Assembly (NCBI GenBank): GCA_902595755.1
Contig: CACJRF010000006.1
Location: 5,911-69,910, forward strand
DNA from: an uncultured Alphaproteobacteria bacterium
Lineage (GTDB): Bacteria; Pseudomonadota; Alphaproteobacteria; Methylaequorales; Methylaequoraceae
Length of the DNA stretch: 64,000 nt
Direction: 5' to 3'
The notes under the pieces: generated by a model
Told to the model about the DNA's origin: nothing
The model's input: only the letters and a program-made list of their open reading frames with translations
The model's database searches: none
Shown here: positions 49,185-56,448 of the stretch, in pieces
How positions within the stretch are numbered: the stretch's first letter is position 1
Layout: every line of letters begins with the position of its first letter
Position numbers and translations under genes: made by a program

Positions 49185-49976
49185 CTACATTCCAGGTAGT
49201 CTCATCAAACTTGCTCCAACAGAGTCAAGTTCTTCTGTCATTTGAATCATTTTTACGTGCATCTCGAATTTTCGTTGTTGGTCTATAGTGTTAACCATTT
49301 CTTCAACAGCATTTACATTACTTTTTTCAAGCGTGCCAGCTACTAACTTTCCCTGATTATTAGGAACTATTTCAGCAAGACTAATTTGTCCATTTTCATC
49401 GGGCTCGGTTTGTAATCTTATGTGACCATCTAGTGTTTTTTTTAATTGATCGTTCTCACCAGGAACAAAAGTAGCTATTAAAGCTGCGTTTATTGGCAAA
49501 GCATCTGGTTCAGCCCCAGTTGGTTCAATAATTATCTCGCCATTTGGTGATATGTCAATTCTTCTAAATGCTGGAAGAACGATTGGTTGAAGTCCATCAT
49601 CTAATATTTTATTTCCTGCACCATCAAGTAATTCTCCATTTTCACTAGTTTGCAAATCACCTCTTCTTGATAAAGCCGGGTTTCCACCATCCCTTGGTTC
49701 TATTAAGAAATATCCGTTTCCATCAAGTGCCACATCTAATGGGTTTCCAGTAGTTTCCATTGAACCCTGTTGGGTTGAAAAACCACCCACATTTCTAGCT
49801 GAAACGATTCTAGGTTCCACTCCGTTTTGTCTATTTAGATAAATTGAACCAAAATCTGTAACAACATCTTGACGATAACCAGGAGTGCTAAGGTTCGATA
49901 AATTATGAGAAGTGGCAGTTTGATTTTCCATTAACATTTTTAAGCTATTCAAAGCAGTTTGTGCCATTCTATCCAT
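49185..49976 (-). CDS. flgF: Flagellar proximal rod protein FlgF
   Basis: SHNLSNLSTPGY, TGNPLDVALDGNGYF, SRRGD, LEKSNVNAVEEM, QRKFEM; follows flgE. Confidence 0.9.
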   Translation of the reverse strand: MDRMAQTALNSLKMLMENQTATSHNLSNLSTPGYRQDVVTDFGSIYLNRQNGVEPRIVSARNVGGFSTQQGSMETTGNPLDVALDGNGYFLIEPRDGGNPALSRRGDLQTSENGELLDGAGNKILDDGLQPIVLPAFRRIDISPNGEIIIEPTGAEPDALPINAALIATFVPGENDQLKKTLDGHIRLQTEPDENGQISLAEIVPNNQGKLVAGTLEKSNVNAVEEMVNTIDQQRKFEMHVKMIQMTEELDSVGASLMRLPGM

Positions 49977-50005: not shown

Positions 50006-53000
50006 TTACATTCTAATATTAACAATGGACTGAGTTGTTGCAGCAGTTGTTTCAATTGATTTAGCGTTTGCCTGAAAGTTTCTTTGCGCTGTAATTAAAT
50101 TTACAAGCTCTTCAGTAATATCAACATTTGATCTTTCAAGTGAACCTGAAAGAACAGTACCAAAACCCTCTGCACCAGCTTCACCAACCGTTGCAGTTCC
50201 TGATACAGCTGTTTCAACATAGGTAGCATTACCGATTTGTTTTAAACCATTTTGGTTGTTAAAGTTCGCTAGAACAATTTTTCCCAATGGGTTATTTTGT
50301 CCATTTGTATAGTTGGCTCTAACTGTTCCTGATGCATCAATTTCTAGACCATCTAATCGTCCTGATGTAAAACCATCCTGATTCACAGTTGATACAAAGA
50401 AAGGTTGTGCAAGCTGTGTGGACTTAGTGAAATCGATATCTAGATCGATACTAAACCCCGCTTCTTGTTTCTCATAATGTACGCCCTGTTTAGGACTTAC
50501 AATACTACCGGATTTATCGAATGTTAATTCACCCTCATCAATGTACAAAGGAAAATATCCATCTACTAGGTTTGCTGGAGGTGTAGTTACTTTGTTGCCA
50601 TCTGCGTCCACAAAAAGATTAAGTCCTTCTGCGTTAGTTGCTTGTATTAGATTATAAATTTGTGGAACTGAACCCACACCTAAATCAACGTTATCGAGAC
50701 CAAACTTAGAGGCCCCTCTAACTTTAATAGTTGAATCCTTACCTGTTGTACCATTAGTGAATGTAAAACTGTTCGTATCAGAATTATATTTTACTGTGAT
50801 ACCACCACCCACAGTTCCAGATTCATCTTCAATTTGGTTGATTCTTTCTTGAAGAGCTTCTGCAAGTGTTGTTCCTACATAAAAACCTTGTGGTATTTCA
50901 ATTACTCCTGCCACACCATTAACTGATACGTTGAAAATGTTTTCATTTCCTAGATTTGATAACCTAAACACTTGTGTAAGATCCTCGGTAGCAGATGCCC
51001 CAACTGCTTGAGCGGGTTGAGCTGCTAAACCTTTTGCATCAGTTGTAATGGCATTAGTTTTAGTCACACCAATGCCTAAAAGGTTATTATCTCCTGAGAA
51101 AAAATCTGTACTATCAGTTACCGATCCATCAGTAGTAGATAGTAAGTATCTACCAACTACAATACTCGAAGCAGTTTGAGCTTCGGTAACTCCAATTGCT
51201 CCATTAGCGGCGATAGTTTCACCTGTAGTCCCGCTACTAAATTCAAAGGCTTTTAACTCACTATTATATCCAACTTTAACCCCAAATCGTTTGTCGTTAA
51301 GCTGAATTTCAGCACCATCAGCTACAAAAGTTCCTGCCGAAAATTTAACACCACCTCTAATGAGTGTTTCTGGAGTATCATCAGCTGTAGGAATACCTAA
51401 ATTATTCTCTGATGTTGCAGTTGTAGAACCAAAAATTTTAAAACTATTGAAATTACTATTTGTTCCTGTACCTATTAAGTTTCTATCAACCTCAAACTGA
51501 AGTCTTTGATTTAATACATCATAACTAACCTCTATCGGTGGATCTTTTTCATCTACCCAATGAGTGGCTGGTATCGTTTGATCATCAGTAGTTCCATCTC
51601 CATTCAGATATGTGTCTCTGGTGTTAGCATTTGTGTTTTCTCCTAGTCCAGTTAACTCGTAGGTATCTAATGTTGTGCCTGCCGATGTTTCAGTATCAGT
51701 AAGTGTGAATACTTCTACAAGATCATCAATAATATTTTTTGCAGCGCCCTCAGCAGTTGTTTTTGTAACCATGTCTGCATTGGTATAGTCGTGTTTTGTT
51801 GTAGATCCAATTTCTCTAATAACAATCTTTGAACTACTAAAATTTACTGGTGCTCCGGAGTAAACATTTTGTGCTCCTTCAAAAAATGCTTCAACAGCTG
51901 TCGATTGTTCTGAGTATATGTTAGCCGAGTCATTTGCATCGGCTACAGATAAAGAAAAATCAGAATCTGGAAAATTTAAACCTGCTGTACTTGCTTCTAC
52001 ATAATAATAGGTATTACCACCTGAAGTTTCAGTGCCAGTAGTTGAAATAGTAAATTCACGTCCATTTACAAAATCAGCATTCGCATTTTGCGTTGTGTCT
52101 GAATAAAATTTACCAATAAAACGTACTTTTTCGTTAGCAGTAAGAGCTGGGTCTGTTGTCCCAAAATAAAATCTTACAGTATTTTCTGATTGATCAAATT
52201 CAACTGCAGTTGTACTTGCGTTATCTCCTAACGAATCCATTTCATCATAAACATGAAGTTCAGGACTTTTTCCATAGTAGGAATAGGTAAGATGTCTTCC
52301 TGTTGAAAGAGAACCGTTTGCAGTAAGGTTTGCTGCTGTGTTTGATGTTGCGCTTGAACCATCATCAGCTGTTCTGTGATTAAAAGTAAAAGCTTGACTT
52401 TGGTCAAGTATCGTAGATATAGATTTACCAGAGGCCCTATAAAATAAACTATCTCCAACACCTAAAGCTGTAGCACTATTTACTGCGTCAGTAGATGGAG
52501 TTACTGCATATTCATTGAGAGCAGCATTTAGTCGAGCCTGAGCATGAGCTAGAAACTGTTCTCTTGTAAAATCAGGCGATGCCCCAGTTAATACTATTCC
52601 CTCTAAATTAGAGACATAAGAATCACTCAACAAGTCAACAGACACAGGTGTGGTCAGGCCTGTTGAAGTTCCATCTGCATTTAATTTTAGCAAATCAATA
52701 GTCAATGTGTCATCAACGTTTTGAACAATCTGAATTTTCTTATCATCACCATATGCAGAATTAATAGCTCTTTGAATCTCGGTTGATAATTGAGCAGCAT
52801 TATAAGAACCTGGTCTTATATCAATATTTACTGGTTGGTCACTATTATCAACATTAATAGTCATAAAATTTGTACCCCAATAAATACTTGAAGATGTATC
52901 TCCACTTTCTCTAGTTGAATTAAATTTCATTGGATCTGTAACAACAGTCACAGTTTTATCACCCTCTTCACCAAAATCGAAAGCACTAGATTCACCAGTT

Positions 53001-53902
53001 ACTTTTGCTGGTGTTGAATCAATTAATGTTTGTAAATCATCTAATTTATAAAGTGCTGATCCTTTACCTTCCAAGAAATAGTTATCATCAGGAACAGATG
53101 TAGTTTGCTGACCGAAACGGTCAATAAAGATTGGCTGTTGAGTATCTGTTACTGAACGAACCAAATCTGGATCAATTACAGTGTCGTTAATTACCAATCT
53201 TGTTTCAAACTTATTCGTAGGGTCGTCAGCTGATGCTGCTTGTGTTCGAATAAAAAATATGGTTGCAATCGTTGGGTTACCTAAATCATCAAAGATCGTG
53301 ATTGAAGTTGAATTATTGTAAGTGGTTGGATCATTAGGATCAAAGACATAACCATTTTCAAATTGTGGTTTATCAGTAATAATTTCACTTGTAGCAGATA
53401 CGTTTACACCCAGCTCAATTGATGTTGTCGCCTTTGGTGTTCCTGAAGTTACTGGAAGTTGCAGTGGTACAGCACTGACTAAGTCTTTTGCTGTTACTGA
53501 ACCATCCTCGTTCACTGGAAAAGTAAGCAAAAACTGTCCAGATGAATCAGTAACATATCTATCATTATTAACGTTAAATGAGCCATTCCTTGTATAAACT
53601 GTTTGACCAGATGTCAATGATGGTTTTAAGGAGAAAAAACCTTGTCCTGAAATCGCTACGTCTAATACGTTAAGGGATGAAGTAATGTTACCTTGAGTGA
53701 ACTGCTGTTTTACACTTTTTAGAATTGTACCAGAACCGATTGAAGATGAAGCATTTTGTAATGGAGAAGTTGCAAAAATATCACCAAATTCTGCCCTTGA
53801 TCTTTTAAAACCAGTCGTGTTAACGTTTGCAATATTGTTTGAAGTAGCCGAAATATCGGACTGCGCTCCATTTAACCCTGTTAATGCTGTATAAAATGAC
53901 AT
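50006..53902 (-). CDS. flgE: Flagellar hook protein FlgE, giant (1298 aa)
   Basis: N-terminal SNNIANVNTTGFK/DVAISGQGFF/YTRNGSF; FlaE-type YNNSTSITIFDDLG; C-terminal ANYTNGQ/LANFNN/SGSLERSNVDITEELVNLITAQRNFQANAK; lies between flgD and flgF. Confidence 0.95.
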   Translation of the reverse strand: MSFYTALTGLNGAQSDISATSNNIANVNTTGFKRSRAEFGDIFATSPLQNASSSIGSGTILKSVKQQFTQGNITSSLNVLDVAISGQGFFSLKPSLTSGQTVYTRNGSFNVNNDRYVTDSSGQFLLTFPVNEDGSVTAKDLVSAVPLQLPVTSGTPKATTSIELGVNVSATSEIITDKPQFENGYVFDPNDPTTYNNSTSITIFDDLGNPTIATIFFIRTQAASADDPTNKFETRLVINDTVIDPDLVRSVTDTQQPIFIDRFGQQTTSVPDDNYFLEGKGSALYKLDDLQTLIDSTPAKVTGESSAFDFGEEGDKTVTVVTDPMKFNSTRESGDTSSSIYWGTNFMTINVDNSDQPVNIDIRPGSYNAAQLSTEIQRAINSAYGDDKKIQIVQNVDDTLTIDLLKLNADGTSTGLTTPVSVDLLSDSYVSNLEGIVLTGASPDFTREQFLAHAQARLNAALNEYAVTPSTDAVNSATALGVGDSLFYRASGKSISTILDQSQAFTFNHRTADDGSSATSNTAANLTANGSLSTGRHLTYSYYGKSPELHVYDEMDSLGDNASTTAVEFDQSENTVRFYFGTTDPALTANEKVRFIGKFYSDTTQNANADFVNGREFTISTTGTETSGGNTYYYVEASTAGLNFPDSDFSLSVADANDSANIYSEQSTAVEAFFEGAQNVYSGAPVNFSSSKIVIREIGSTTKHDYTNADMVTKTTAEGAAKNIIDDLVEVFTLTDTETSAGTTLDTYELTGLGENTNANTRDTYLNGDGTTDDQTIPATHWVDEKDPPIEVSYDVLNQRLQFEVDRNLIGTGTNSNFNSFKIFGSTTATSENNLGIPTADDTPETLIRGGVKFSAGTFVADGAEIQLNDKRFGVKVGYNSELKAFEFSSGTTGETIAANGAIGVTEAQTASSIVVGRYLLSTTDGSVTDSTDFFSGDNNLLGIGVTKTNAITTDAKGLAAQPAQAVGASATEDLTQVFRLSNLGNENIFNVSVNGVAGVIEIPQGFYVGTTLAEALQERINQIEDESGTVGGGITVKYNSDTNSFTFTNGTTGKDSTIKVRGASKFGLDNVDLGVGSVPQIYNLIQATNAEGLNLFVDADGNKVTTPPANLVDGYFPLYIDEGELTFDKSGSIVSPKQGVHYEKQEAGFSIDLDIDFTKSTQLAQPFFVSTVNQDGFTSGRLDGLEIDASGTVRANYTNGQNNPLGKIVLANFNNQNGLKQIGNATYVETAVSGTATVGEAGAEGFGTVLSGSLERSNVDITEELVNLITAQRNFQANAKSIETTAATTQSIVNIRM

Positions 53903-53923: not shown

Positions 53924-54628
53924 TTAATCGTTAGTTTTTAATTTTATGGCGTCATTTGCTGAAATTTCTCCATAATCTTTAGTTTCTAAAATTACGTCCT
54001 CACTATCTTTTGGAGCAGAAGCAGCAATGACTTTATTGTACACAGCTGTACTTATTCCGTCACTTGCTTGACCATTCCCTGCATAGGCTTGAATCGTAAG
54101 TCTTGTCTTATTTCTTTTGATTTCATCTGGAATATCAGTCCAACTGAAACCAACTAAACCTCTATCATTTGAACCAAGGTTCATCGTGTGAACAATTTCA
54201 CCACTTGGATTTGTAAAAGTTAAACCTACATCGTTTGAGTAACTAGGTAAATCAACAACTCCGTGAATCTCACCCTTATCATCAGGACTTACAACTTGTC
54301 CAGGGACAAGAACTGAATGTCCTAAAAATTGTGCAGCTGTAGCTACACGATTAGGTTCAAGTTTTGATCCTAAATTAGTTAAGTTACTATTAATTTCAGT
54401 AATACCTGTTACCGTTGAAAATTGAGCCATCTGCGCAATAAAATCTCCGTTATCCATTGGAGCAAATGGATCTTGATTTTGAAGTTGAGTGGTCATGAGC
54501 TTTAAAAAATCTTCCTGACCTAATTTGTTTTTATTACCTTCTTTTTTTACATCTTCTTGCGTTCTTACTCCAAGTTTATTTAGAATATTATTTAAAGATT
54601 GTTCTGATGTTTTTGAAATATCTGCCAT
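53924..54628 (-). CDS. flgD: Hook capping protein FlgD
   Basis: LGQEDFLKLMTTQLQNQDPFAPMDNGDFIAQMAQFS. Confidence 0.97.
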   Translation of the reverse strand: MADISKTSEQSLNNILNKLGVRTQEDVKKEGNKNKLGQEDFLKLMTTQLQNQDPFAPMDNGDFIAQMAQFSTVTGITEINSNLTNLGSKLEPNRVATAAQFLGHSVLVPGQVVSPDDKGEIHGVVDLPSYSNDVGLTFTNPSGEIVHTMNLGSNDRGLVGFSWTDIPDEIKRNKTRLTIQAYAGNGQASDGISTAVYNKVIAASAPKDSEDVILETKDYGEISANDAIKLKTND

Positions 54629-54639
54629 TTTTTACCCCT

Positions 54640-55053
54640 TTATTTTCCTAAACTTGCAGTTTTAAGCATTAGCGCTTTAATTGTTGAAATTACCTCTACA
54701 TTATTTTGATAATGTCTCGATGCCTCAAGCATATCCACGTATTCTTCTTCAATATTCACAGGTGCTCTATATATAAAACCATTCTCATCAGCCATAGGGT
54801 GACCAGGTTTATATTCTTTTATCGGATCTATATCCATCTTTTGAACAGTTACCGCATCAACTGTAGAAATCCCTTTTTTCCTAATTAGATCAAAATATTT
54901 TGTTTCAAATACTGGTTTTACAGGTTTGTAAGCATCATTAGGATTTGATGCAATATTATCTGCGTTGGCTAAATTACTAGCCGTAGCATTAAGCCTTACT
55001 AGCTGAGCTCCCATTGCCCTTTGTGCTATGTGATAAATATTTTTAATATCCAT
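54640..55053 (-). CDS. flgC: Rod protein FlgC
   Basis: ASNLANAD, PGHPMADENG, PVNIEEE...ASRHYQNN. Confidence 0.95.
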   Translation of the reverse strand: MDIKNIYHIAQRAMGAQLVRLNATASNLANADNIASNPNDAYKPVKPVFETKYFDLIRKKGISTVDAVTVQKMDIDPIKEYKPGHPMADENGFIYRAPVNIEEEYVDMLEASRHYQNNVEVISTIKALMLKTASLGK

Positions 55054-55442
55054 TATTCACCCCTTATCGCCCCAAGTAACCCTCTAATTTTTGAATTAAT
55101 AAAATCTAAAGTTGTTTGATATCTAATCGAGTTTTCAGCAAATTCCATCTGTTCAACTGCAAGTTCAACAGTATTTCCATCAACAGAAGGGTTAATTGAC
55201 TGACGATATTGAACTTTGCCTGGTAAATACTTAGTAGTTAATGCTATATGAGCATCACTTGATGTTTTTAGAGGTCCGTTGTTTAATGATCTTGCTAATT
55301 CCACCTCAAAGTCAACATCTCTTGCTTTAAAATTTGGTGTAGAAGCATTGGCAATGTTAGACGCAAGAATCTCATTCTTTTTGTTTCTAATGTTTAATGC
55401 ATTGCTGTACACATCAAATTGTTGTTTAATACTATTATTCAT
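55053..55442 (-). CDS. flgB: Rod protein FlgB (129 aa)
   Basis: ATG at 55442; ILASNIANASTPNFKARD, DGNTVE. The track's 285-aa version is an antisense read of the neighbouring gene. Confidence 0.95.
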   Translation of the reverse strand: MNNSIKQQFDVYSNALNIRNKKNEILASNIANASTPNFKARDVDFEVELARSLNNGPLKTSSDAHIALTTKYLPGKVQYRQSINPSVDGNTVELAVEQMEFAENSIRYQTTLDFINSKIRGLLGAIRGE

Positions 55443-55458
55443 ATTTTTTTTTCGCTTT

Positions 55459-55474
55459 TGGTTTGGAATTTGCA
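55459..55474 (+). promoter_or_regulatory. Possible second sigma54 promoter, for the 55507 ORF
   Basis: Plus strand TGGTTTGGAATTTGCA = GG-N10-GC with a perfect TTGCA but a weaker -24 element. Confidence 0.4.
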
Positions 55475-55486
55475 AATTGAATGCCA
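55471..55486 (-). promoter_or_regulatory. sigma54 (-24/-12) promoter of flgBCDEF
   Basis: Minus strand TGGCATTCAATTTGCA = GG-N10-GC, close to the TGGCAC-N5-TTGCW consensus, about 30 nt above the flgB ATG. Confidence 0.8.
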
Positions 55487-55506
55487 AAAGAAAGGTTGTT
55501 AATTTT

Positions 55507-56448
55507 ATGAATGAAAAAAATGAGTTAAACACAAACTTAGATCCTGAAGTTGAAAAAATAAGAGACCAAATAATTTCAAAAATAGGAGATAAACCTTTAG
55601 ATGAAGTAAACCAAGTCATCAAAAAATTGCTAATGGAAAATATGGATGAAACAATGAGACTTGCTGCACTGGCGGCAAGAGTAAAGATTATTAGAGGGAA
55701 AATTTCCTTATTATATGATAATAAAATTGAAATTAATAAACCAAAAACAAAACCTGTTGAACAAAAGTCAGATGAAAAAACAAATATTAAAGAAGAGAAA
55801 TGGGTCAGAATAAAGATGCTTGAGTCTGGTGAAGTCAACGGTAAACAAATTGATAAGGATGTAATACTAGATGTTAAAGAAGAAGACTCAAAAATTCTTA
55901 TAAATGCCAAAAAAGCAGAAATAGTTATAGATAAAGCTGATAAGCCTGATCAGACGAAAAAAGCAGATATTGACCCTGAAAAAAAAGCTAGTGTAAAAAA
56001 TGATATCCAAGAGGAGGCTAAAGAAAGTAAATCTGATAAAAGTACTAATGAGGCAGAACAAAATATTGAGGATAAAAATAAAAAAGATCTTTTAGATAAG
56101 CATGAAAAGAAAGAAAAAGATGGCAAAATTGAAGATAAAATGGAAGATTCAAAAGAGTCTAAATCTGATGAGAATAAGACGGCTGAACAAGCTGCACCGT
56201 CTTCTGAGAGCAAACCATTAGAAGAGGCTAAAAGTAAAGAAGATAAACCGGCTGAACAAGCTGCACCTGCATCTGAGAGCAAACCAGTAGAAGATGCTAA
56301 AGGTGAAGAAGATAAACCGGTTGCACAAGCTATACCTTCTTCTGAGAGCAAACCAGAAGAAAAGGCTCAAGGTGAAGATAAACCGGTTGCACAAGCTACA
56401 CCTTCTTCTGAGAGCAAACCAGTAGAAGAAAATAATTCTAAAAACTAA
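55507..56448 (+). CDS. Hypothetical protein (313 aa) with a small folded domain and a Lys/Glu/Asp-rich repeat tail
   Basis: ATG at 55507 preferred because the longer ORF overlaps flgB antisense; no signal peptide or TM segment seen. Confidence 0.8.
   Translation: MNEKNELNTNLDPEVEKIRDQIISKIGDKPLDEVNQVIKKLLMENMDETMRLAALAARVKIIRGKISLLYDNKIEINKPKTKPVEQKSDEKTNIKEEKWVRIKMLESGEVNGKQIDKDVILDVKEEDSKILINAKKAEIVIDKADKPDQTKKADIDPEKKASVKNDIQEEAKESKSDKSTNEAEQNIEDKNKKDLLDKHEKKEKDGKIEDKMEDSKESKSDENKTAEQAAPSSESKPLEEAKSKEDKPAEQAAPASESKPVEDAKGEEDKPVAQAIPSSESKPEEKAQGEDKPVAQATPSSESKPVEENNSKN
56173..56430 (+). repeat. Four in-frame tandem repeats, periods 69/69/66 bp
   Basis: TCTGAGAGCAAACCA at 56203, 56272, 56341 and 56407; encodes ~23-aa units KP(A/V)(E/A)QA.PSSESKP.E. 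Confidence 0.95.

What the first reader, a model, noticed from the sequence alone, without database searches (positions are those of the whole stretch)
50540..53176. Nested 'out-and-back' repeated domains inside the FlgE insert
Seen: residues 346-382 (TINVDNSDQPVNIDIRPGSYNAAQLSTEIQRAINS) resemble 988-1023 (NVSVNGVAGVIEIPQGFYVGTTLAEALQERINQ). A closing motif V.Y.....F.F recurs at ~789-806, ~874-894 and ~1034-1054. PIFIDRFGQQTT (~257-268) mirrors NLFVDADGNKVTT (~1095-1107). Inference: domains are inserted inside one another like Russian dolls, each completed by a distant segment, with residues ~470-780 forming the outermost tip. This looks like a modular extension arm grown by repeated domain insertion, as in flagellin outer domains.
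Basis: partly seen in the sequence, partly recalled or inferred. Interest (0 to 1): 0.65.

Follow-up and report, generated by a model that had tools for sequence, protein, structure and literature searches.

The report
Russian-doll domains in a giant hook protein
This 1298-residue flagellar hook protein (FlgE) of a small-genome marine alphaproteobacterium carries an ~800-residue outgrowth that appears to have formed by one small domain being inserted into copies of itself, ending in a hypervariable tip; it extends a known building principle of flagellar proteins and is not a new kind of system.

Summary
The gene (window 50006..53902, minus strand) is an intact FlgE. Its D0, D1 and D2 halves lie at the two ends, and about 800 unannotated residues sit inside D2.

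- aa 346-385 matches the first half of a contiguous ~85-aa unit at 986-1070 (three strands, a helix, three strands).
- aa 868-917 matches the second half of that unit. Joined, the two pieces align colinearly with it (E 1e-9 with close homologues, 6e-19 with diverse ones).
- A second split copy (386-466 + 788-830) lies inside the first. It is interrupted by aa 467-787.
- In natural relatives of 933-1090 aa that second copy is contiguous.
- aa 467-787 holds all indels and the lowest identity among 28 homologues, so it is the hypervariable tip.
- Two homologous hairpins (245-280, 1085-1120) bracket the insert.

AlphaFold2 models the region confidently (pLDDT 88, pTM 0.78) with the same strand/helix layout in all three units.

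Nesting is already known in Campylobacter FlgE and in flagellin. The size, the depth and the self-insertion are new. The function is untested; it is probably an outer sleeve on the hook.

The parts
50006..53902 (-). flgE, giant flagellar hook protein, 1298 aa, 138 kDa, pI 4.3, no Cys
   Evidence: ORF. Pfam Flg_bb_rod, LlgE_F_G_D1, FlgE_D2 and Flg_bbr_C; TIGR03506 at 284 bits. PDB FlgE of polar flagella 9yee/8z5u, E 2e-69. Composition.
53171..53455 (-). D2 domain, N-terminal part (aa 150-244)
   Evidence: aa 183-250 match FlgE_D2 HMM positions 10-65. PDB alignments to aa 4-221.
53063..53170 (-). H2 (aa 245-280), hairpin element homologous to H3, at the outbound base of the insert
   Evidence: hhalign H2 vs H3: E 4e-11 on A2, 4e-3 on A1. 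Reciprocal HMM hits in most relatives.
52868..53062 (-). X1 (aa 281-345), outbound segment whose first ~30 residues need partners outside aa 281-470
   Evidence: Strands at 281-302 have pLDDT 78-94 in the aa 145-1175 model. They are lost, with pLDDT 47-68, in the isolated aa 281-470 model.
52748..52867 (-). A-N (aa 346-385): first half (three strands + helix ...QRAIN) of split unit A
   Evidence: Best window against the first half of unit C: E 3e-5 (A1), 1e-12 (A2). DSSP layout.
52505..52747 (-). B-N (aa 386-466): first half of split unit B (strands + helix ...AQARLN), nested inside A
   Evidence: Concatenated B vs C: E 8e-4 (A1), 3e-8 (A2). B vs A: E 3e-9 (A2). Contiguous with B-C in P0234, P0257, P0169 and P0262.
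51542..52504 (-). Tip module (aa 467-787): beta-rich, hypervariable, inserted in the helix/strand-4 loop of unit B
   Evidence: Absent from P0262, P0189, P0137, P0151 and P0158 with both flanks kept. Mean identity 0.59 vs 0.80-0.99 elsewhere. All 351 extra alignment columns of 28 homologues fall here. pLDDT is 94-97 across its central beta-rich part, ~aa 535-665.
51413..51541 (-). B-C (aa 788-830): closing three strands of unit B (IEVSYD..LQFEV)
   Evidence: Windows 765-824 vs the second half of C: E 3e-7 (A2). HMM hit at 790-826. Adjacent to B-N in tipless relatives.
51302..51412 (-). Linker (aa 831-867), almost entirely coil in the model
   Evidence: DSSP shows no helix and only isolated bridge residues. 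No similarity to a first half.
51152..51301 (-). A-C (aa 868-917): closing three strands of unit A (VKVGYNSELKAFEFSSGTTG)
   Evidence: E 4e-10 (A1) and 9e-10 (A2) vs the second half of C. Same 5- and 9-residue strands as C. Present in nearly all relatives.
50948..51151 (-). X2 (aa 918-985), inbound segment, unassigned
   Evidence: Short strands in the model. Conserved at 0.80 identity.
50693..50947 (-). Unit C (aa 986-1070): contiguous reference copy, three strands, helix (...QERIN), three strands
   Evidence: HMM scores 120 bits here and 88-126 bits in every relative where it was found. DSSP.
50543..50692 (-). X3 + H3 (aa 1071-1120): inbound base, with H3 homologous to H2
   Evidence: aa 1096-1178 match FlgE_D2 HMM positions 54-142.
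50378..50542 (-). D2 domain, C-terminal part (aa 1121-1175)
   Evidence: Pfam FlgE_D2. PDB alignments from aa 1153.

Best explanation
This is a FlgE hook protein in which the distal loop of domain D2 has grown by recursive domain insertion.

One ~85-residue unit (three strands, a helix ending in R-I/L-N, three strands) is present three times:
- Unit C (986-1070) is contiguous.
- Unit A is split into 346-385 and 868-917.
- Unit B is split into 386-466 and 788-830 and lies inside A.

Unit B is in turn interrupted, in the loop after its helix, by a 321-residue beta-rich hypervariable tip (467-787). Counting from the core, the order is D0 > D1 > D2 > (X1/X2?) > A > B > tip, with C in series on the return path. 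Two homologous hairpins (245-280, 1085-1120) sit at the base.

Both chain ends of an axial flagellar protein must lie in the filament core, so new material can only be added at the far loop. That topology forces the doll-in-doll pattern. It also means the tip can fold first as the chain leaves the export channel and the core closes last (inference).

In the assembled hook (usually about 120 FlgE copies in studied species, from general knowledge, not measured here) the extra 85 kDa per subunit would form an outer sleeve. Its conserved inner layers (A, B, C) probably make subunit-subunit contacts that stiffen or stabilise the hook, as the D3/D4 domains do in Campylobacter. The variable tip faces the water (inference, untested).
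For: Identity as FlgE, with D2 split in two by the insert.

Three homologous units:
- Concatenated A vs C: probability 96.4%, E 1.1e-9, 65 columns, colinear with a single 1-residue gap at the junction, using only close colinear homologues. With 60 diverse sequences: 99.1%, E 6.5e-19.
- B vs C: E 8e-4 and 3.4e-8. B vs A: E 4.7e-3 and 3.2e-9.

Specificity: window scans give a background median E of 0.15-0.2. The only strong windows are at the A, B and C halves, plus one orphan at 555-600.

Complementarity: 386-430 has no likeness to a second half (E 0.44), and 831-867 is almost entirely coil with no helix.

Comparative evidence:
- Relatives P0234, P0257, P0169 and P0262 (933-1090 aa, full length) have unit B contiguous. 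That natural sequence aligns to unit C across the helix and closing strands at E 5e-8.
- The order N-half, C-half, full unit is kept in nearly all 27 relatives, whatever lies between (110-820 aa).

Structure: the AlphaFold2 model of aa 145-1175 has pLDDT 87.9 and pTM 0.78, with matching strand/helix layouts in A, B and C.

Tip: it holds all indels and the lowest identity.

Distribution: FlgE reading frames of 1262-1551 aa occur in 30 of the 37 genomes of the same taxonomic family; the other five with a match are contig-end fragments.

Precedents for nesting and for a stabilising role: C. jejuni FlgE (PMC5069557, PMC5097172).
Against: - No coordinates or PAE were available, so contact between 346-385 and 868-917 was never seen directly.
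- In an isolated model of aa 281-470 the strands and helix of A-N keep their DSSP assignment and pLDDT (74-92) without A-C. That would also fit a self-sufficient local domain, although a three-strand meander pairs with itself anyway.
- One alignment on the diverse set joined 340-430 to the whole of unit C (E 2e-10). This would suit a colinear reading. Its second half is heavily gapped and is not reproduced with the close-homologue alignment.
- The B evidence is weak with close homologues alone (E 8e-4).
- No relative with unit A contiguous was found.
- Nothing tests the mechanical role.
- Foldseek found no solved structure resembling the insert.
Confidence: 0.72

Rival explanations
1. Colinear out-and-back arm. 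The insert is a string of separate small domains going out and coming back. 346-430 is a complete unit with a diverged second half. 868-917, 788-830 and 557-599 are free-standing hairpin motifs belonging to other domains. The repeats reflect old tandem duplications, not nesting.
For: The isolated aa 281-470 model keeps all strands and the helix from 318 to 466 at pLDDT 74-92. The A2 alignment of 340-430 with 985-1070 spans 79 columns. Unit C and X2 really are in series.
Against: With the safe alignment, 386-430 shows no likeness to a second half (E 0.44), while 868-917 does (E 4e-10). 831-867 has no helix or strands that could be a lost first half. Tipless relatives join 466 to 788 directly and give a contiguous unit that matches C. 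A 35-aa hairpin cannot be a domain on its own.
Confidence: 0.17
2. The tip (467-787) is a functional head, not passive bulk. It could be a carbohydrate- or surface-binding module, or a decoy or shield against flagellotropic phages and grazers. The nested units would then serve only as its stalk.
For: The tip is the most confidently folded part (pLDDT 94-97 across ~aa 535-665). It is hypervariable, with all indels. It is swapped for unrelated modules in relatives. There are faint ConA-type lectin matches (E 0.3-0.6, probability at most 0.03).
Against: The lectin matches are not significant. There is no Pfam, PDB or PHROG hit for the tip. Hypervariability is also expected for any exposed surface without a function. 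This rival concerns function only and is compatible with the nested architecture.
Confidence: 0.25
3. The recurring motifs are chance or compositional effects in a Ser/Thr/Asn/Gly/Asp-rich protein and carry no structural meaning.
For: 45% of residues are S, T, N, G or D. Single-sequence Smith-Waterman for 348-382 vs 991-1023 gives only z=1.8.
Against: Profile scans of the whole protein give a background median E of 0.15-0.2 and pick out only the named sites, down to 1e-12. None of 2000 shuffles reached 3 regex hits. The pattern recurs at equivalent places in relatives of 25-40% identity.
Confidence: 0.02

Closest known systems
Campylobacter jejuni FlgE (865 aa; PDB 5az4, 5jxl), domains D3 and D4
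   Same: Extra domains are inserted in the middle of D2. [quoted passage not shown] The extra domains add contacts that stabilise the hook (PMC5097172).
   Different: The insert is not homologous. The PDB match of 5jxl covers only aa 1172-1297. TIGR02489 flgE_epsilon scores 149 bits against a cut-off of 413. This protein is 430 residues longer, has at least two more nesting levels, and reuses one domain type. C. jejuni FlgE was called 'one of the longest' hook proteins in 2016 (PMC5069557).
Flagellin outer domains (Salmonella FliC D2/D3; giant flagellins over 1000 aa of marine gammaproteobacteria)
   Same: A hairpin-topology axial protein with conserved D0/D1 and a hypervariable, surface-exposed middle that grows by additions at the distal loop. 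Giant versions give thick filaments (PMC6248924, PMC11532411).
   Different: That is the filament, this is the hook. In this genome the flagellins are small (249-262 aa, plus one of 515 aa), while FlgE and FlgK are giant. No sequence similarity between unit C and the flagellins, FlgK, FlgL or FliD of the same genome (per-domain i-E at least 0.04).
Recursive nested insertions in cyanobacterial RNA polymerase beta' (Si3 region)
   Same: Repeated insertion gives multi-level nesting, up to six levels (PMC13114784).
   Different: Unrelated protein, fold and function. That case is documented from solved or predicted coordinates; here the nesting is inferred from profiles, relatives and secondary structure.
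Flagellin hook IN motif (Pfam PF07196)
   Same: Similar layout: strands, a helix ending in I-N, then a V.a.Y/d-type strand pair. It occurs in FliD, FlgK, FlgL and flagellins.
   Different: Membership is not shown. FlgE gives no hit in the six-frame scan of its own genome at E up to 10. Only 3 of 30 unit-C sequences from relatives hit, best E 0.0098. The profile comparison with the genome's own IN motifs gives E 0.004, probability 8%.

Membership tests
FlgE / FlgEFG hook-basal body family | N-terminal rod motif (PF00460), D1 (PF22692), D2 (PF07559) and C-terminal helix (PF06429); TIGR03506 above cut-off | tested here: met
   All four Pfam domains are above their gathering scores. TIGR03506 scores 283.7 bits against a cut-off of 70. 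PDB FlgE 9yee, E 2e-69.
FlgE / FlgEFG hook-basal body family | Genomic context within flgB-C-D-E-F | tested here: met
   ORFs for FlgD-like (53924..54628), FlgC-like (54640..55053) and FlgF/G-like (49185..49976) proteins flank the gene. These were assigned from their translations, not scanned individually.
Standard equivalog FlgE models (NF004238, NF004240, etc.) | Whole-protein score above the curated cut-off | tested here: not met
   377.7 bits vs 400, and 372.6 vs 472. Both ends match, the middle does not.
Epsilonproteobacterial long FlgE (TIGR02489, D3/D4 type) | Homology of the inserted domains to C. jejuni or H. pylori D3/D4 | tested here: not met
   149 bits against a cut-off of 412.85. 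PDB 5jxl, 5az4 and 5npy match only the C-terminal D2/D1/D0 part (aa 1144-1297). Foldseek 5az4: E 0.06, probability 0.10.
Nested (discontinuous) domain architecture A1-B-A2 | The two flanking pieces together match a contiguous homologous domain | tested here: met
   A vs C: E 1.1e-9 and 6.5e-19. B vs C: E 8e-4 and 3.4e-8. The alignments cross the junction colinearly.
Nested (discontinuous) domain architecture A1-B-A2 | Relatives exist in which the host domain is uninterrupted | tested here: met
   Met for unit B: P0234, P0257, P0169 and P0262. Not found for unit A.
Nested (discontinuous) domain architecture A1-B-A2 | The two pieces are in contact and form one fold in 3D | not testable with these tools
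   Structure prediction returns pLDDT and DSSP only. Indirect support: pTM 0.78 and identical strand/helix layouts. The truncation model was inconclusive.
Flagellin_IN motif (PF07196) | Score above the gathering cut-off of 22.7 bits | tested here: not met
   No hit in this FlgE. Weak hits in 3 of 30 relatives' units, best E 0.0098.
Phage tail sheath outer domains | Structural match mapped to a defined module | tested here: inconclusive
   BFVD sheath proteins: E 3.5e-5 and 5.9e-5, probability 1.0, 132-275 columns. The query range is not reported. Sequence hints are only DUF3383 at E 0.0027, and no annotated tail-sheath PHROG family matched.

The most novel reading that the evidence does not exclude
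The largest hook proteins arose by one small domain inserting repeatedly into the same loop of its own copies. That gives at least two levels (A around B), and possibly a third vestigial copy inside the tip at about 480-600. The result would be a multi-layer sleeve on the hook of a bacterium whose filament is naked. This would be a general, topology-driven growth rule for axial proteins, and a hook far thicker than its filament.
Probability: 0.45. Interest if true: 0.7.

Novelty: new variant of a known kind. Interest (0 to 1): 0.58.

Why it matters
Hook proteins are usually about 400 residues, and the longest one with a solved structure (Campylobacter, 865 aa) was already treated as exceptional. 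Here a whole family of streamlined marine bacteria (genome assemblies of 0.8-2.0 Mb, many incomplete) keeps a 3.9-kb hook gene of 1262-1551 codons, and metagenomic relatives reach 1650 aa or more.

This gives a clear natural series: tipless, tipped, and differently tipped versions. The series can be used to ask what hook outer layers do to bending stiffness, torque transmission, and phage or grazer recognition. It can also show how nested domains fold after export through the narrow channel of the flagellar type III secretion system (T3SS). It is also a second clear candidate, after RNA polymerase Si3, for recursive self-insertion of a domain.

Tried and rejected
1. I dropped it. With the close-homologue alignment only the first half aligns, 386-430 has no likeness to a second half, and 868-917 is by far the best second half.

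2. Truncation test: an AlphaFold2 model of aa 281-470 alone. It shows that 281-310 needs outside partners. It cannot decide the A-N/A-C question, because a three-strand meander pairs with itself.

3. Reading contacts from the model: no coordinates are laid in /data.

4. Foldseek of both models against the PDB: only D2 matches for the long model, nothing for the fragment.

5. Flagellin_IN membership was not established.

6. Homology of the units to the genome's own FlgK, FlgL, FliD or flagellins: none significant.

7. PHROGs scan of unit C: no family with a known function at a convincing E-value.

8. Checking whether H2/H3 is a feature of ordinary D2, using six alphaproteobacterial FlgEs of 412-476 aa. 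They are too divergent to say. A single-sequence PDB search with 1075-1192 was also uninformative.

9. Looking for intermediate forms in other alphaproteobacterial families with FlgE of 763-1080 aa. Their inserts are unrelated.

10. Covariation or DCA contact inference was not attempted, because there are too few independent full-length sequences.
Full report
**What is there.** The finding lies inside one ORF, window 50006..53902 on the minus strand, 1298 aa. It sits between flgD/flgC/flgB-like ORFs upstream and a flgF/G-like ORF downstream.
- Pfam finds the four FlgE hallmarks. NCBIfam TIGR03506 scores 284 bits. The standard FlgE equivalog models fall just below their cut-offs, because only the two ends match.
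- The best solved relatives are FlgE of polar flagella (9yee, 8z5u; E about 1e-69). They match aa 4-221 and 1153-1297.
- The Pfam D2 model is split: positions 10-65 match aa 183-250, and positions 54-142 match aa 1096-1178.
- So about 800-870 residues sit inside D2, and no library names them.
- The protein is acidic (pI 4.3), has no cysteine and weighs 138 kDa. The insert alone is 85 kDa.

**Checking the observation.** The quoted strings are at 348-382, 991-1023, 257-268 and 1095-1107.
- Single-sequence alignment is weak: z=1.8 and z=4.6 against shuffles.
- I collected relatives: 864 hits in the 90%-cluster database and 409 in the 50%-cluster database.
- I built two alignments. A1 has 28 close, strictly colinear homologues (at least 65% identity). 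A2 has 60 sequences down to about 25% identity.
- On A1, 874-894 vs 1034-1054 gives E 6e-7.
- Scanning 45-aa windows of the whole protein against each half of 985-1070 picks 345-389 as the best first half (E 3e-5) and 855-899 as the best second half (E 4e-10).
- On A2 these are 1e-12 and 9e-10, with a background median E of 0.15-0.2. Weaker sites are at 420-479 (first-half type) and at 765-824 and 555-599 (second-half type).
- An HMM built only from the 986-1070 segments of 30 relatives (A3) recovers 345-385, 557-585, 790-826 and 874-897 in this protein.
- The regex V.Y.{5,6}[FL].F hits exactly 792, 877 and 1037; 0.036 hits are expected, and none of 2000 shuffles reached 3.
- HMMs of 243-282 and 1083-1122 each find the other site in most relatives.

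**From repeats to architecture.** I first thought 340-430 was a complete local copy. The safe alignment does not bear this out:
- Only its first half aligns with 985-1070.
- 386-430 shows no likeness to a second half (E 0.44).
- The 40 residues before 874 are modelled almost entirely as coil.
- Joining 340-385 to 868-917 gives a colinear alignment to the contiguous unit across the junction with a single 1-residue gap. On A1 it is 65 columns, probability 96.4%, E 1.1e-9; on A2 it is 99.1%, E 6.5e-19.
- The same holds, more weakly, for 393-468 joined to 786-832. Against unit C: E 8e-4 (A1) and 3.4e-8 (A2). Against the first split unit: E 3.2e-9 on A2.
- All three share the pattern P-x-x-F/Y-x(4)-L/F-x(4)-Q-x-R-I/L-N followed by V-x-Y-x(5-6)-L/F-x-F.

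I therefore read three homologous units:
- C = 986-1070, contiguous.
- A = 346-385 + 868-917.
- B = 386-466 + 788-830, inside A.
- aa 467-787 lies inside B.

**Comparative proof for the inner level.** Full-length relatives drop or replace exactly 466-787 while keeping both flanks:
- P0262 (953 aa) aligns to query aa 1-465, then 788-1297. P0189, P0137, P0151 and P0158 break at the same two points.
- In P0234, P0257, P0169 and P0262 the helix of unit B is followed, directly or after at most about 13 residues, by its closing strands.
- That natural, uninterrupted sequence aligns to the unit-C profile over helix and strands at E 5e-8. It also aligns to the query's joined B across the junction at E 4e-5.
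- Across 27 relatives the order first half, second half, full unit is kept while the spacing varies from about 110 to 820 residues.
- Further insertion hot spots lie at query aa 711-745 (inside the tip) and 893-935, the loop between the last two strands of A.

**The tip.** Among the 28 close homologues (1255-1547 aa), all 351 extra alignment columns fall in 467-787. Identity to the query is 0.59 there against 0.80-0.99 in every other module.

**Structure prediction.**
- AlphaFold2 on aa 145-1175 with A2 gave pLDDT 87.9 and pTM 0.78. The tip is the most confident part, with pLDDT 94-97 across ~aa 535-665.
- DSSP gives the same layout for the units. A: strands 347-351, 358-360, 365-367, helix 369-383, then strands 876-880, 885-893, 914-917. 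C: strands 989-994, 997-1002, 1006-1008, helix 1010-1021, then strands 1036-1040, 1045-1053, 1058-1062. B: three strands, helix 447-466, then strands 790-795, 800-805, 820-824.
- The tools give no coordinates, so contacts could not be read.
- A second model of aa 281-470 alone (pLDDT 81, pTM 0.50) lost the strands at 281-302. Their pLDDT fell from 78-94 to 47-68, so that segment needs partners outside the fragment. The model kept the rest, which leaves the A-N/A-C packing undecided.
- Foldseek against the PDB matched only D2 and nothing for the fragment.
- Against viral models, two phage tail sheath proteins matched (E 3.5e-5 and 5.9e-5). The matching part of the query is not reported.

**Distribution.**
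- Of the 37 genomes of the same taxonomic family (the window's own included; 14 genera; assemblies of 0.8-2.0 Mb, many incomplete), 35 have a D2 match. In 30 of them the reading frame is 1262-1551 aa with D2 matched in two pieces. The other five are contig-end fragments, and two incomplete genomes have no match.
- Other alphaproteobacterial families mostly have 349-570 aa. A few reach 763-1080 aa, but with unrelated inserts.
- A close relative is labelled 'alpha proteobacterium MED-G10'.
- In the same genome the flagellins are 249-262 aa plus one of 515 aa, while the FlgK-like gene is 1789 aa.

**How it probably works.**
- Shown: identity as FlgE, the split D2, the three homologous units, the contiguous B in relatives, and the hypervariable tip.
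- Inferred: the split halves pack into one fold each. The nesting follows from the hairpin topology of axial proteins, so additions are tolerated only at the distal loop. After export the tip can fold first, and the units then close in turn towards the core.
- Inferred: the conserved layers make lateral contacts that stabilise the hook, as reported for the C. jejuni D3/D4 domains (PMC5097172). The tip is the exposed, fast-evolving surface. A binding or anti-phage role for the tip is an open alternative.

**Comparison with what is known.**
- Nested, discontinuous domains in FlgE are established for C. jejuni: D1, D2 and D3 are discontinuous and D4 is continuous. That 865-aa protein was called one of the longest hook proteins (PMC5069557).
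- Giant flagellins are known (PMC6248924).
- Recursive nesting up to six levels is described for cyanobacterial RNA polymerase beta' (PMC13114784).
- My full-text searches found no paper on hook proteins above 1000 aa.
- The insert is not homologous to the Campylobacter domains. Membership of the Flagellin_IN motif family is not established.

**Verdict.** This is a new variant of a known kind: a much larger hook protein, nested more deeply, and built by reuse of one unit.

Noticed in passing
L006 3095..8464 (own genome, contig C3:43095-48464): The FlgK-like hook-associated protein is 1789 aa, with at least three Flagellin_IN motif hits. The neighbouring flagellins are only 249-262 aa (plus one of 515 aa). 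Hook and junction are giant while the filament is minimal.
   Followed up: partly
P0139 (metagenomic relative, 2492 aa): This FlgE-like protein is 2492 aa. Its match to this FlgE starts only at about residue 1200, so roughly 1100 extra N-terminal residues are unexplained. It could be a gene fusion, a mis-call or a tandem FlgE.
   Followed up: no
model of aa 145-1175 (window 50378-53470): Foldseek against viral models gives phage tail sheath proteins at E 3.5e-5 and 5.9e-5 (probability 1.0). Seven of 30 unit-C sequences weakly hit Pfam DUF3383. This hints at a decoration domain shared by sheaths and hooks. The matching part of the query is not reported.
   Followed up: partly
window 52106-52234 (aa 557-599, inside the tip): An orphan second-half-like hairpin (TTAVEFDQSENTVRFYFGTT...KVRF) matches the second half of unit C at E 1e-8 on the diverse alignment, with no detectable first half. 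It may be the vestige of a third nested copy.
   Followed up: partly
L013-L017 (other alphaproteobacterial genomes): FlgE of 763, 851, 886, 1011 and 1080 aa occur in other families of the class. Their inserts show no similarity to this one, so hook enlargement has happened several times independently.
   Followed up: partly
window 55279..56448 (+): An ORF divergent from flgB encodes a K/E/D-rich protein that ends in near-identical repeats (AAPSSESKP.E..K.EDKP...). It was seen in the ORF list only.
   Followed up: no
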